A stretch of 64,000 bases of DNA from the human T2T-CHM13v2.0 reference genome, Homo sapiens. The stretch is taken from assembly GCF_009914755.1 (NCBI RefSeq), contig NC_060932.1, one strand, 5' to 3'. Positions within the stretch are counted from its first letter, which is position 1. Every line of letters starts with the position of its first letter. Under the pieces are notes generated by a model, which saw only the letters and a program-made list of their open reading frames with translations, did not search any database and was not told the DNA's origin. Made by a program: the position numbers and the translations under genes. Below are positions 25,190-27,640 of the stretch, one piece after another.

Positions 25190-25320
25190 GTTGCAAGAAC
25201 ACAGGGCACCCCTCTGCCATGTGCACCACTGGGTCCCTAGAGCCCATCCCATGCCTAACACAAAGGAGATGCTCAACAAACACATAGAGGATGATGAAGG
25301 AAGGAAGAATGAATGGATGC
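25190..25320 (+). mobile_element. LINE-2 3' end seeding the adjacent GGAT array
   Basis: ccctagagcccatcccatgcctaacacaaaggagatgctcaacaaacac...gaatgaatgg resembles the L2 terminus. Confidence 0.55.
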
Positions 25321-25985
25321 AAGGAAGGAAGGATGGAAAGATGGATGATGGGTGGATAGGTGATAGATGAATGGATGGGTGGAAGGATGAATGGTGGATG
25401 GGTGGATAATGGACGAACAGATGGTGTACAGGTGCATGGGTGGATGGTAGCTAGGTGGATGTGTGAACAGATTGTGGATGGATGGATAGATGGGTGATGA
25501 ATGGAAGGTAGATGGATGGACAGATGGTGGATAGATGGGTGGATGAGTTGATGGATGGATGGATGGATGGGTGGATGAGTGGATAGATGGATAAATGGTG
25601 GGTGGGTGGATGGATGGATGAATGGATGGATGGATGGAAGGATGGATGGATAAATGGATGGTGGGTGGATAGATGGGTGGAAGGTGGATGGATGAATGGA
25701 GGGTGGATGGATGGACAGATGGTGAATGGGTGGATAGAAGGGTGGATGGTGGGTGGATGGATGGATGATGGATGGATGAATGGATGGATGGTGGATGGGT
25801 GGATGGATGGATGGCAGATGGATAGATGGATGGATGGATGGTGGATGGGTAGATGGATGGACAGATGGACGGTAGACAGGTGGATAAATGGGTGGATGGA
25901 TAGATGGATGGATGGTGGATGGTTAGATGGATGGTGGATAGGTGAATGAATGGATGGTGGATGTGCAGATGAATGGATGGTGTAC
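25289..25985. repeat. (GGAT/TGGA)n array
   Basis: ~700 bp of ggatggatgg variants ending ~20 bp from the TSNARE1 donor site. Confidence 0.97.
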
Positions 25986-26015
25986 GGGTAGGTGGGGTAC
26001 TCACCACGGGTAGCA

Positions 26016-26111
26016 TCACTTTCGGACAGAGGTGGCGATGATGATGATGATGACAAGCAGGGCAGTGACTCCAGCTGATAGGAAGCAGCACTTGATCTTG
26101 TGTCTCTGGAG
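26016..26111 (-). CDS. TSNARE1: TSNARE1 last coding exon (exon 26005-26111): C-terminal tail anchor [31 protein letters not shown]
   Basis: Acceptor cctctctctctctcccag|CTC (phase 0) and donor CCCGTG|gtgagta at 26005/26004. The peptide has a basic juxtamembrane segment, a ~20-aa hydrophobic helix and an RK-stop end, as in syntaxins, and is recognised as the tSNARE1 C-terminus. Confidence 0.92.
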
Positions 26112-26619
26112 CTGGGAGAGAGAGAGAGGTTGTTTCCATATCCTGGTCCTCCAACCTCCCATCCTCAGGGGCATTTGGCTTGTGCATACTTTGGGCTGTG
26201 GCATGCAGGGGCTGAGTCCACCCTGGGGCAGGGTCCAGAGAGAACCTGTGTCTTTCAAGGGGCTCTGTCCTGAGCTAGCATGACTGTTTATTGAATAACT
26301 GCTCTGGGCTGGCTCTGGAGCCAGGTTCAAAGGGAGAGAGGCAGGAGACTCAACTTAAGCTCCAGAGTCAGCCAGGCATGGGTGTGATTCATGCTTTGTC
26401 CATCTTGAGCTGAGGGATCTCGGCTGTTTCTCTTCTTGGTACCTTAAATTATTTTGTAAGGATAAGATGATGCCATGGACTCCATGGAGATATTTGAAAG
26501 CCTTAAAATTAAGGTGATGCCTGGAAACTACATAGCCTGGGGCCTGGCGAATGCCAGACATATAGTCTTCACCAGATAGTCTTACTTGTATATTCTTGTG
26601 GCTATTACTAATTTAAAAA

Positions 26620-27240
26620 ATTCTGGACCCACCATCAAAGGTCTCATGGAAGAGAAAGACATTGATCTGTGCTAAGGGACTGATTAGATAGGGATTTGAA
26701 GGCTTCATGTAGAAGGCTATACCTCATTCAGGTCCTGAATGTGGGGTGGGAAACCCCTCGGCAGACCAGGGGGTGAGAGGCAAGGGATTAAGGGAGAACC
26801 CAGAGAAAAACGGGAGCTTAAATGAAATGGTAAGTACCAAGTATCCAAAGGAGGGAGCAGGGAGCAAGGGACAGGGAATGGGAAGGGAGACAGATTGGGA
26901 TGAGACAGTCCTGCAAATTATGAAGGAGTTTAGACACCACCCCTAGACAGCAGGGAAGACAGGAGTTTAGAGCAGGAGAGTGACATGTTTAGCAGTGTGT
27001 TGTTGGAGAGAGCACTCAGGAAGCCAGACAAGAGGATGGGTAGAAAAGAGATCTGAGACAAGGATGCCAGACAGGCGGAAGACTAACGTGTCCATGAAAG
27101 ATGGGCAGGGGCCTAGGGGAGGGTAGAGAAGGGAGGGTAAGATGGAACAGAGTCAAAACCAGAAGGTGGAATCCTCAGAACCTAGGAGTAACTGGATAGG
27201 GGAGAGGAGGGAAGTATAAAGGACAAGCCAAGGATGAGTC
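26620..27240 (-). mobile_element. Degenerate LINE-2 fragment
   Basis: gaaggagtttagacacc...gagtttagagcaggagagtgacatg is typical reverse-strand L2. Confidence 0.6.
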
Positions 27241-27298
27241 CCCTCGGTTACCCCTCTGGGTCATCAGTTAAATGTTGGGATGAAAATCCATTAATGCA

Positions 27299-27640
27299 AC
27301 CATCCATCCATCCATCCATCCATCCATCCATCCACCCACTCATCCATCCATCCACCCACCTATCCATCCACCCATCTACCCATCAATTCATCTATCCATC
27401 CATCCATCCATGAGCCCACTCATCCATCCATCCATCCACCTATCCATCTGTCCATCCATCCATCCGTCCACCTATCCACCCATCATCCAACCATCCATCC
27501 ATCCATCCATCCATTCAACCATCCATCCATCTACCCACCTCTCCATCCATCCATCTACCCACCTATCCATCCATCCATCCAAACATACACCCATTCATCT
27601 ACCCACCCATCTATCCACCCATCCTTCTACCCAGCTGTCC
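27299..27640. repeat. (CCAT/ATCC)n array
   Basis: ~340 bp of catccatcca variants, in the opposite orientation to the 25289-25985 array. Confidence 0.97.

What the first reader, a model, noticed from the sequence alone, without database searches (positions are those of the whole stretch)
25289..27640. TSNARE1 TM exon is bracketed by complementary microsatellites that could pair and loop it out
Seen: on the minus-strand pre-mRNA, the 27640-27299 array reads (GGAU)n about 1.2 kb upstream of the exon, and the 25985-25289 array reads (AUCC)n starting ~20 nt downstream of its donor. The two are reverse complements over up to ~340 nt and can pair in many registers. Established: complementary intronic flanks (usually inverted Alus) promote exon skipping or back-splicing. 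Inference: a microsatellite-built RNA stem may switch tSNARE1 between membrane-anchored and soluble forms, and allele length could tune it. I know of no description of this arrangement.
Basis: partly seen in the sequence, partly recalled or inferred. Interest (0 to 1): 0.82.

Follow-up and report, generated by a model that had tools for sequence, protein, structure and literature searches.

The report
Inverted microsatellites flank TSNARE1's membrane-anchor exon
Two common tetranucleotide repeat arrays really do sit in opposite orientation around the exon that encodes tSNARE1's membrane anchor and could pair in the RNA like an inverted Alu pair, but the anchored-versus-soluble choice is made at a different exon 42 kb upstream and nothing yet shows that the pairing matters.

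Summary
A degenerate (GGAT)n array (25289-25985) and an (ATCC)n array (27299-27640) bracket the TM/stop exon (26005-26111, minus strand). On the pre-mRNA they read (GGAU)n, 1,188 nt upstream, and (AUCC)n, 19 nt past the donor. In silico they pair strongly: duplex -516 kcal/mol against -354±11 for shuffles, and 313 of 342 upstream-array bases paired with the downstream array (mean probability 0.91). The match is about as long and as similar as the Alu-sized inverted pairs in the same gene.

Published isoform work puts the soluble forms (93-97% in cortex) at a separate exon 13 with its own stop. I located that exon 42.5 kb upstream of the TM exon, and it is probably an alternative last exon. The complementarity is generic: any other GGAT array, or a block-shuffled array, pairs nearly as well. 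The pre-mRNA also holds several competing arrays. I found no circRNA, sQTL or tandem-repeat literature bearing on this exon.

The downstream array is also a dense YCAY (NOVA-type) cluster, which gives a rival reading. The lead schizophrenia SNP rs4129585 lies 460 bp from the upstream array. My verdict is a real structure whose function is unproven and probably minor.

The parts
27299..27640 (-). Upstream intronic array, (GGAU)n on the TSNARE1 pre-mRNA (342 nt). Its 3' end lies 1,188 nt before the exon's acceptor.
   Evidence: (CCAT)n on the + strand, 81.5 copies, 73% matches. Longest pure run 32 nt at 27300. Self-fold only -16.2 kcal/mol. 313 of 342 nt have p>0.5 of pairing with the downstream array.
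26112..27298 (-). Unique intronic sequence that would form most of the 1.3-kb loop, including the polypyrimidine tract and acceptor (CUCUCUCUCUCUCCCAG).
   Evidence: sequence. One search finds no tandem array here except a short 26852-26877 repeat. The acceptor region is mostly unpaired in the ensemble, mean 0.69.
26005..26111 (-). TSNARE1 TM/stop exon: exon 13 of 14 in NM_145003.5, 'exon 14' in Plooster's 15-exon model. CDS 26016-26111. Donor GUG|GUGAGU.
   Evidence: Hub annotation. Translation [31 protein letters not shown]. Primer TSN1-CT2b is visible.
25289..25985 (-). Downstream intronic array, (AUCC)n on the pre-mRNA (697 nt), starting 19 nt after the donor. It is also a dense YCAY cluster.
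   Evidence: (ATGG)n, 169.8 copies, 67% matches. 128 YCAY in 697 nt against 1.85 per 100 nt gene-wide, and 33 in the first 200 intronic nt. Self-fold -2.3 kcal/mol. The part used in the duplex is 25411-25958.
7850..8083 (-). Last exon (3' UTR of NM_145003.5). If the TM exon were skipped, phase 0 would read on for 67 codons (HRPLNRQ...CVGPS*), giving a non-TM tail.
   Evidence: Hub annotation. Phase 0 follows from exon 12 ending ...CGG CAC CAA|GUAAGU and the 96-nt CDS of the TM exon.
28080..28112 (.). Context only: an RE1/REST-like site that carries the lead schizophrenia SNP rs4129585 at 28100 (this assembly has A, the non-risk allele). It lies 460 bp from the outer end of the upstream array.
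   Evidence: sgRNA3 and ssODN from the supplement of PMC9279498 were located by the DNA search at 28064-28083. The sequence was read.

Best explanation
Two members of the common (GGAT)n microsatellite family lie in opposite orientation on either side of the TSNARE1 TM exon, in a repeat-dense gene 2.9 Mb from the end of chromosome 8. In nascent RNA that reaches them, they are the thermodynamic equal of an inverted Alu pair. I expect them to zip into an imperfect duplex of about 310 bp. That duplex would close a 1.3-kb loop holding the exon, with its base about 45 nt (ensemble) from the 5' splice site. This part is shown in silico.

The anchored-versus-soluble decision is taken earlier. The exon 12 donor (window 71765) joins either exon 13 (acceptor 68675, own stop at 68631, probably its own poly(A) site) or, 45.6 kb later, the TM exon. 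The duplex can therefore act only on the minority of transcripts that read past exon 13. In those, the expected effect (inferred) is like that of inverted Alus. TM-exon use would fall modestly, through skipping to the last exon (a 67-aa non-TM tail) or through rare back-splicing. The YCAY cluster would also be masked.

Nothing in the sequence suggests the pairing has been selected. The most likely reading is a fortuitous arrangement with no effect, or a small one, on isoform output.
For: Structure and pairing. The duplex energy is -516.4 kcal/mol, which is 68% of the -755.6 for a perfect complement. 313 of 342 nt are paired, with mean probability 0.908.

Comparable to inverted Alus: blastn self-inverted over 206 kb found only four loci with inverted pairs of at least 100 nt and a gap of at most 5 kb. 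Three are about 300 nt at 80-81%. This one is 365 nt at 78.4%.

The switch lies elsewhere: Plooster sections 7 and 17; exon 13 located with their primer; exon 12 located; no strong donor after exon 13 but PAS-like hexamers.

No specific co-adaptation. The upstream array pairs almost as well with the two other GGAT arrays, at -490.2 and -478.6. Shuffling it in 20-nt blocks gives -504.4 +/- 7.5 (range -516.6 to -494.1), against the real -516.4. A perfect (GGAU)n would pair better with the downstream array, at -593.3.

Common repeat family.

No supporting literature. The TSNARE1+circRNA search gave 3 papers, none about this gene's circRNAs by title or abstract start. TSNARE1+sQTL gave 3, of which two are general reviews and one is a vitamin D/schizophrenia study. 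TSNARE1+tandem repeat gave 9, none relevant by title. Plooster reports that TSNARE1 isoform QTLs are not schizophrenia-associated. Swapping rs4129585 alleles did not change TSNARE1 transcripts (PMC11130735 summary).
Against: The duplex is strongly favoured, and neither array has any competing self-structure. If the RNA behaves thermodynamically the stem should form, and stems of inverted-Alu grade do change the splicing of neighbouring exons (Lev-Maor 2008, abstract).

The TM exon has a good polypyrimidine tract and a GUGAGU donor, yet it is found in only 3-7% of cortex transcripts. If exon 13 is an internal exon that splices on to the last exon, which I could not exclude, then skipping of a strong TM exon in most transcripts would need an explanation. 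The stem would be a natural one.

The arrays lie 0.46 kb and about 2.1 kb from the lead schizophrenia SNP, so a repeat-length allele could be in linkage disequilibrium with it.

Lack of co-adaptation does not exclude function, because any two GGAT arrays pair. I could not test conservation in other primates.
Confidence: 0.55

Rival explanations
1. Functional RNA clamp. The (GGAU)n:(AUCC)n duplex forms co-transcriptionally right after the TM exon's donor emerges. It loops the exon out and substantially lowers its inclusion or drives back-splicing, so it helps keep tSNARE1 mostly non-fusogenic. Large length alleles would tune the effect.
For: Equilibrium folding is dominated by the inter-array duplex. 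The pair is separated by only 1.3 kb and is closer than any competitor. It has the best energy per pair of the partners tested: about -1.65 kcal/mol per pair, against -1.23 to -1.38 for the larger G-rich arrays (ratios). It is of inverted-Alu grade. Precedents exist: inverted Alus shift an exon from constitutive to alternative (abstract), and reverse-complementary matches in flanking introns drive back-splicing (abstract of PMC8938519). TM-exon inclusion is low in every tissue despite good splice sites.
Against: The soluble isoforms are made through exon 13, 42.5 kb upstream and probably a terminal exon. There are several competing partners in the same pre-mRNA. The (AUCC)n array at 82201-82740 pairs with the upstream array at -490.2. 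The downstream array pairs with the (GUGGUG)n array at -686.8, with the G-rich VNTR before exon 13 at -621.3, and with part of the (AUGAGUGAGUGA)n array at -520.7. There is no array-specific fit. A 107-nt single-exon circle would be unusual; single-exon circRNAs were 6.4% of 631,985 in one census (passage). No circRNA or sQTL report was found. The pure runs are short, so small length changes cannot tune a 310-bp stem.
Confidence: 0.2
2. Single-stranded protein-binding element. The downstream (AUCC)n = (CCAU)n array is a very dense YCAY cluster starting right after the 5' splice site. That is the position where NOVA1/2-type binding enhances exon inclusion in neurons. Other C-rich-binding proteins could equally use it. 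The upstream array would be irrelevant, or would act only by masking this element.
For: The array holds 128 YCAY motifs in 697 nt (18.4 per 100 nt, against 1.85 gene-wide), with 33 in the first 200 intronic nt. Only 18 of 3,928 sliding windows in the gene reach that density, and all lie in the two (AUCC)n arrays. NOVA binds YCAY clusters, and their position within 200 nt of a splice site predicts enhancement or silencing (PMC2014790, passages). That a cluster downstream of the 5' splice site enhances inclusion is my recollection of the original RNA-map paper. TSNARE1 is enriched in cortex and neurons.
Against: TM-exon inclusion is lowest-grade in brain (3-7%), and the non-TM exon exceeds it in every GTEx tissue. 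That is not what a strong neuronal enhancer predicts. A tetranucleotide repeat yields YCAY by arithmetic, so the density is not evidence of selection. I had no CLIP data. If the duplex forms, the motifs are double-stranded.
Confidence: 0.12
3. Action at the DNA or transcription level. The inverted arrays, or the G-rich nascent RNA over the C-rich template at 27299-27640, form hairpin, cruciform or R-loop structures. These slow RNA polymerase just before the TM exon, or make the locus unstable, and affect expression rather than pairing in the RNA.
For: The upstream array is strongly G-rich on the RNA-like strand: 13.5 GGA per 100 nt against 2.1 gene-wide. The arrays form an inverted DNA repeat of 365 nt at 78%. 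The locus is extremely rich in tandem repeats, with 55 TRF rows in 64 kb. This rival is inference only.
Against: The 1.3-kb spacer makes DNA cruciform extrusion unlikely (general knowledge). G runs are mostly only 2 long, so G-quadruplex potential is weak. No data bearing on it were available.
Confidence: 0.05

Closest known systems
Inverted Alu pairs (IRAlus), or reverse-complementary matches in introns flanking an exon: exon skipping and back-splicing
   Same: Two intronic segments of about 300 nt in opposite orientation, about 78-80% complementary, flank an exon. They are predicted to form long dsRNA that brings the intron ends together (Lev-Maor 2008 abstract; abstract of PMC8938519).
   Different: The arms are tandem tetranucleotide arrays, not transposon copies. 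Pairing is therefore possible in many registers and with any other array of the family in the transcript. One arm starts only 19 nt from the donor. No dsRNA, editing, skipping or circRNA evidence exists here.
Length-polymorphic intronic microsatellites that modulate a neighbouring exon (for example the GT repeat downstream of BRD2 exon 3b)
   Same: A simple repeat in the intron just downstream of an alternative exon. RNA structure is proposed as the mechanism, and repeat number correlates with inclusion (PMC10789245, discussion passage).
   Different: That case is a single self-pairing GT tract. Here two different, mutually complementary arrays lie on opposite sides of the exon, and both are degenerate with short pure runs.
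NOVA YCAY-cluster intronic splicing enhancers and silencers (RNA map)
   Same: A dense YCAY cluster lies within 200 nt downstream of the alternative exon's 5' splice site (PMC2014790 passages).
   Different: The cluster is a 697-nt microsatellite rather than a short conserved element. The expected brain-enriched inclusion is not seen in the published data. Binding is untested.
Alternative last-exon or alternative C-terminal-exon choice producing TM and non-TM forms
   Same: This is how the published tSNARE1 isoforms differ: exon 13 (LMRRTRPPAACGCP*) against the TM exon.
   Different: That mechanism needs neither array. The arrays lie 41 kb or more downstream of exon 13.

Membership tests
Reverse-complementary intronic pair flanking an exon (IRAlu-type) | Two intronic segments in inverted orientation, one on each side of the exon | tested here: met
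   (ATGG)n at 25309-25989 and (CCAT)n at 27300-27624, with the exon at 26005-26111 between them.
Reverse-complementary intronic pair flanking an exon (IRAlu-type) | Complementarity long and strong enough, at least comparable to inverted Alu pairs | tested here: met
   365-nt alignment at 78.4%, against three pairs of about 300 nt at 80-81% elsewhere in the gene.: -516.4 kcal/mol, which is 68% of a perfect duplex and about 15 SD beyond dinucleotide shuffles.
Reverse-complementary intronic pair flanking an exon (IRAlu-type) | The across-exon pairing wins over within-intron and other competing pairings | tested here: inconclusive
   It wins in the isolated 2.5 kb. However, the same pre-mRNA holds another (AUCC)n array (-490.2 with the upstream array) and four G/purine-rich arrays that pair with the downstream array at -444 to -687. 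Kinetics in vivo are unknown.
Reverse-complementary intronic pair flanking an exon (IRAlu-type) | dsRNA forms in cells (A-to-I editing clusters, PARIS or RIC-seq chimeras) | not testable with these tools
   No such data were at hand. Standard editing pipelines discard sites in simple repeats (methods passage of PMC8938519), so published catalogues would miss it.
Reverse-complementary intronic pair flanking an exon (IRAlu-type) | Measurable effect on exon inclusion, or a back-spliced product | not testable with these tools
   No report was found: TSNARE1+circRNA gave 3 papers, none relevant by title or abstract start, and TSNARE1+sQTL gave 3, of which two are general reviews and one is a vitamin D/schizophrenia study. 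circRNA databases were not available.
Cassette-exon skipping as the TM/soluble switch of tSNARE1 | Soluble isoforms arise by skipping the TM exon | tested here: not met
   The published soluble isoforms end in a different exon. Its stop was located at window coordinate 68631, 42.5 kb upstream. It has no strong donor after it and has PAS-like hexamers.
NOVA-type YCAY-cluster splicing element | Cluster of YCAY motifs within 200 nt of a regulated splice site | tested here: met
   33 YCAY in the first 200 nt after the donor and 128 in the 697-nt array, which is 10-fold over the gene average.
NOVA-type YCAY-cluster splicing element | NOVA binding and NOVA-dependent, brain-biased exon inclusion | not testable with these tools
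   No CLIP or knock-down data were available. Published cortex data show only 3-7% TM-exon transcripts, which does not favour a strong neuronal enhancer.

The most novel reading that the evidence does not exclude
A double-stranded RNA clamp built from two complementary microsatellites controls whether the TM exon of tSNARE1 is used. That decides between an inhibitory, soluble SNARE and a fusion-competent one. Large length alleles of the arrays lie 0.46-2.1 kb from the lead schizophrenia SNP rs4129585 and would be the causal variation, or part of it, that the SNP tags. This would be the first case of an exon regulated by a pair of complementary simple repeats, and it would point to a class of dsRNA that editing and structure pipelines discard by design.
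Probability: 0.04. Interest if true: 0.85.

Novelty: new variant of a known kind. Interest (0 to 1): 0.36.

Why it matters
If the duplex forms and acts, intron pairing would extend from transposon copies to microsatellites. These arms mutate in length, pair in many registers, and are masked out of most editing, structure and QTL pipelines. The location adds weight. tSNARE1 is a leading schizophrenia candidate, and the presence or absence of its TM domain is thought to decide whether it promotes or inhibits membrane fusion (Plooster discussion passage). The lead GWAS SNP lies 460 bp from one array.

As things stand, the value of this check is mostly corrective. The isoform switch lies at another exon, the complementarity is generic to a common repeat family, and no functional evidence exists. 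It does provide a cheap, well-defined minigene and long-read test.

Tried and rejected

2. I searched for the non-TM exon inside the window with the published primer and found 0 matches at up to 2 mismatches. It lies outside the window, and I found it in the assembly.

The 12 matches (2 perfect, at 13217 and 33343) were not the site. I settled it with the published sgRNA. The real site is a diverged RE1 that the motif scan missed.

4. Primer tables of PMC11130735 are in PDFs that cannot be read here. PMC8418747 gives no flanks for the SNP.

5. An Rfam scan of 24500-28500 gave only a sub-threshold chance match: UCA1, 18.6 bits against a gathering score of 80.

6. A Pfam scan of the 267-aa open frame running through exon 13 gave nothing below E = 0.08.

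7. An inversion origin of the pair (one ancestral array split by an inversion) was considered. It cannot be tested without other primate genomes, which are not held here.

8. A genome-wide census of inverted GGAT pairs was not possible. The pattern tool lists only the first 100 matches and allows gap ranges of at most 30. By my own grouping, those 100 fall in 18 loci on distal chromosome 1p, each on a single strand.

9. Whether exon 13 is terminal could not be settled from the literature. TSNARE1+polyadenylation gave 2 papers, neither relevant by title, and Plooster's figures are not held.

10. I did not use complex prediction, structure prediction or the protein searches. They have no bearing on an intronic RNA question.
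Full report
**What is there**

The + strand carries a degenerate (ATGG)n/(GGAT)n array at about 25289-25989. TRF reports 169.8 copies, 67% matches and 7% indels, with higher-order periods of 19 and 23.

TSNARE1 is transcribed from the minus strand. The pre-mRNA therefore reads (GGAU)n, then 1,188 nt of unique intron, then the exon 26111-26005, then, 19 nt after the donor, (AUCC)n.

The exon has a long polypyrimidine tract with AG, and a GUG|GUGAGU donor. 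It translates to [31 protein letters not shown]. It contains the sequence of the published reverse primer for the TM isoform.

**Is the complementarity real and more than chance?**

- The repeat finder lists 229 inverted pairs between the arrays in many registers. The longest is 136 nt at 77%, and the best is 62 nt at 92%.
- A gapped blastn alignment of the region against its own reverse strand is 365 nt at 78.4%.
- The longest perfect run is 21 bp, or 38 bp with G-U allowed.
- RNAduplex gives -516.4 kcal/mol with 312 pairs, which is 68% of the -755.6 of a perfect complement.
- Controls reach only -347.8 (upstream array reversed), -358.0 (downstream array reversed) and -353.5 +/- 10.9 (15 dinucleotide shuffles, best -373.5).

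About two thirds of the energy is therefore mere G/U-rich against C/A-rich composition. The remainder, about 15 SD, is true sequence complementarity.

Neither array folds on itself: -16.2 and -2.3 kcal/mol. In a full fold of the minus strand of 25200-27700, 313 of 342 upstream-array bases pair with the downstream array in the MFE. In the ensemble the mean probability is 0.908, and 313 of 342 bases have p>0.5. The downstream part used is 25411-25958.

**Comparison with inverted Alus**

I screened the whole 206 kb (window plus the rest of the gene) for inverted pairs of at least 100 nt with at most 5 kb between the arms. Only four loci appeared. Three have Alu-like size and identity (299-330 nt, 80-81%). 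The fourth is this microsatellite pair (365 nt, 78.4%), and at about 1.4 kb its gap is smaller than two of the three others'. As a structure it is of inverted-Alu grade.

**Evidence against a special, selected fit**

- The upstream array pairs almost as well with the other (AUCC)n array in the gene (82201-82740, -490.2) and with a third GGAT array outside the gene (2741-3650, -478.6).
- Shuffling the upstream array in 20-nt blocks gives -504.4 +/- 7.5 (range -516.6 to -494.1), which overlaps the real value.
- A perfect (GGAU)n would pair better with the downstream array (-593.3).
- The complementarity is therefore what any two arrays of this family have.
- The family is common. The perfect 8-unit pattern has 2,940 forward and 2,704 reverse matches in the assembly, against 65 and 60 for the reversed control (overlapping matches, lower bounds).
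- The window is exceptionally rich in tandem repeats, with 55 TRF rows of score 80 or more.

**Competing partners in the same pre-mRNA**

| Array pair | Duplex energy (kcal/mol) |
|---|---|
| (AUCC)n 82201-82740 x upstream array | -490.2 |
| (CCCU)n 57567-58427 x upstream array | -316.2 |
| Downstream array x (GUGGUG)n 51817-53237 | -686.8 (558 pairs) |
| Downstream array x G-rich VNTR before exon 13 | -621.3 |
| Downstream array x 1-kb part of (AUGAGUGAGUGA)n | -520.7 |
| Downstream array x purine-rich array 8540-9035 | -444.3 |

Per pair, the exon-bracketing duplex is the most stable, and it is by far the closest in sequence. It is nevertheless one of several possible pairings.

**Where the anchored/soluble switch really is**

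Plooster et al. (bioRxiv 10.1101/2021.02.09.430442) describe 15 exons. I read the abstract, sections 7 and 17 and further passages; the figures are not held.
- Exon 14 is the TM exon.
- Exon 13 encodes a non-TM C-terminus.
- Most exon 12 reads splice to exon 13.
- Exon 14 coverage is lower than exon 13 coverage.
- About 97% of adult and 93% of fetal cortex transcripts are non-TM, and exon 13 exceeds exon 14 in every GTEx tissue.

Their exon 13 primer has no match in the window. It matches the assembly at window coordinate 68631-68658. The sequence shows an acceptor ...cuguuag|CUG AUG AGG ... CCC UGA, giving the tail LMRRTRPPAACGCP*.

Exon 12 lies at window 71765-71847 and ends CGG CAC CAA|GUAAGU in phase 0. 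The exon 12 donor therefore chooses between an acceptor 3.1 kb away (exon 13) and one 45.6 kb away (the TM exon).

In the 1,975 nt after the exon 13 acceptor, no donor scores above 5 on a rough matrix that I recalled from memory. The TM exon's own donor scores 5.47 on the same matrix. TATAAA and CATAAA hexamers lie at +1175 to +1295, followed by GU/U-rich sequence. I therefore think exon 13 is an alternative last exon, with about two-in-three odds. In that case most soluble-form transcripts are committed some 41 kb before either array is made.

If exon 13 instead splices on to the last exon, the TM exon would have to be skipped in most transcripts despite its good splice sites, and the stem would become a much better candidate. 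I could not settle this. Plooster's statement that exon 15 encodes the 3' UTR leaves it open.

**What the stem could do**

In transcripts that bypass exon 13, looping out the TM exon would favour exon 12 joining the last exon. Read in phase 0, that gives a 67-residue non-TM tail. Alternatively it would favour back-splicing of a 107-nt circle. That would be unusually small, and single-exon circles were only 6.4% of 631,985 circRNAs in one census (passage).

The base of the duplex lies about 45 nt from the donor in the ensemble. The donor itself is partly paired in the model, with mean unpaired probability 0.38, while the acceptor region is mostly open at 0.69.

These consequences are inferred from the behaviour of inverted Alus (Lev-Maor 2008, abstract) and of reverse-complementary matches (abstract of PMC8938519). 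Nothing here shows them.

Tuning by allele length is doubtful. The longest pure runs are 32 nt and 20 nt, so ordinary slippage would change a few base pairs out of about 310.

**A rival reading of the downstream array**

(AUCC)n is the same as (CCAU)n, so it is a YCAY motif every four bases. The array has 128 YCAY in 697 nt, against 1.85 per 100 nt across the gene, and 33 in the first 200 nt after the donor. The upstream array has 1.

NOVA proteins bind YCAY clusters, and the position of a cluster within 200 nt of a splice site predicts the direction of regulation (PMC2014790, passages). That a downstream cluster enhances inclusion is my recollection of the original RNA-map paper.

Against this, the TM exon is rare in brain, and the motif density is an arithmetic consequence of the repeat unit. 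If both readings hold, the duplex would mask the cluster.

**Disease context**

Using the published guide RNA and repair template (supplement of PMC9279498), I placed the lead schizophrenia SNP rs4129585 at window 28100, inside a diverged RE1-like site. This assembly carries A, the non-risk allele. The SNP is 460 bp from the outer end of the upstream array and 1,989 nt upstream of the TM exon's acceptor.

Wahbeh et al. (PMC11130735; summary and passages) found that swapping the alleles in isogenic progenitor cells did not change TSNARE1 transcripts and pointed to ADGRB1. They also stress that other variants in linkage disequilibrium may act on TSNARE1. Plooster et al. state that TSNARE1 isoform QTLs are not schizophrenia-associated. 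The proximity is therefore suggestive at most.

**Is it in print?**

| Search terms | Result |
|---|---|
| TSNARE1 + circRNA | 3 papers |
| TSNARE1 + sQTL | 3 papers |
| TSNARE1 + tandem repeat | 9 papers |
| TSNARE1 + polyadenylation | 2 papers |
| complementary + microsatellite + flanking introns + circRNA | 24 papers, 15 listed |
| reverse complementary / simple repeats / back-splicing / intron pairing | 91 papers with at least 3 terms, 15 listed |

Judged by titles and abstract starts, none of these gave a description of this arrangement.

Related ideas are published. A polymorphic GT repeat downstream of BRD2 exon 3b correlates with inclusion, and GT tracts self-pair (passage). One model attributes 6% of circRNA loci to simple repeats (passage). 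Editing pipelines remove simple repeats (methods passage), so the absence of reports is weak evidence.

**Verdict**

The proposed role as the TM/soluble switch does not fit the published isoform architecture, and the pairing shows no sign of being more than generic. I rate it a real, inverted-Alu-like structure made of microsatellites, most likely with no effect or a small one (0.55). A substantial regulatory clamp is the main rival (0.20).

Conservation, in-cell dsRNA, junction counts and repeat-length genotypes could not be examined with the tools at hand.

Noticed in passing
window 28064-28112 (SNP at 28100): The lead schizophrenia GWAS SNP rs4129585 maps here, inside a diverged RE1/REST-like site (TTCAGGAC[A/C]CATGACAGCGCC). 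The assembly carries the non-risk A. It lies 460 bp from the (ATCC)n array and about 2 kb upstream of the TM exon. My motif scan with a recalled RE1 core missed it.
   Followed up: yes
L001 about 2000-2490 minus strand (window about 69130-69620): A G-rich VNTR with a period of about 30 nt, containing GGAUGG units, lies about 455 nt upstream of the acceptor of the non-TM exon 13. It pairs in silico with the (AUCC)n array downstream of the TM exon (-621.3 kcal/mol) and with the 82-kb (AUCC)n array (-580.7). Both alternative C-terminal exons thus have a GGAU-type array upstream.
   Followed up: partly
window coordinates 82201-82740 (L003) and 71765-71847 (L002 7765-7847): A second (AUCC)n array in the pre-mRNA lies 10.4 kb upstream of exon 12, which encodes the end of the SNARE motif and has the donor CAA|GUAAGU. 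Together with the G-rich VNTR at about 69 kb, it would bracket exon 12.
   Followed up: partly
L001 941-1744 minus strand: A 267-codon stop-to-stop open frame runs through the exon 13 acceptor in a different frame from the published LMRRTRPPAACGCP* tail. It ends in a glutamine/leucine-rich, coiled-coil-like stretch (...QQLLDSHRQQ...KVEEEI*). There is no Pfam match below E = 0.08. It may be a relic or an alternative coding use of this exon.
   Followed up: partly
window 2773-3626: A third degenerate (GGAT)n array (about 850 nt) lies just beyond the TSNARE1 3' end, in the last intron of LINC00051, which is on the + strand. There the RNA would read (GGAU)n.
   Followed up: partly
window 17549-20200, 51817-53237, 57567-58427, 8540-9035: There are very large low-complexity arrays inside TSNARE1 introns: 2.6 kb of (TCACTCACTCAT)n, 1.4 kb of (CACCAC)n, 0.86 kb of (AGGG)n-like and 0.5 kb of C/T-rich sequence. 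On the pre-mRNA, several are strong predicted partners of the GGAT-family arrays.
   Followed up: partly
window 7850-8083 minus strand: Read in phase 0, the last exon stays open for 67 codons. A direct exon 12-to-last-exon splice would therefore give a distinct soluble C-terminus. I did not find such an isoform described.
   Followed up: no
window 7850-28100: By my recalled hg38 coordinate for the gene's 3' end, the interval from the gene end to rs4129585 is about 0.76 kb longer in this assembly than in hg38. That hints at length differences in one or more of the tandem arrays in between. This rests on memory and is unverified.
   Followed up: no
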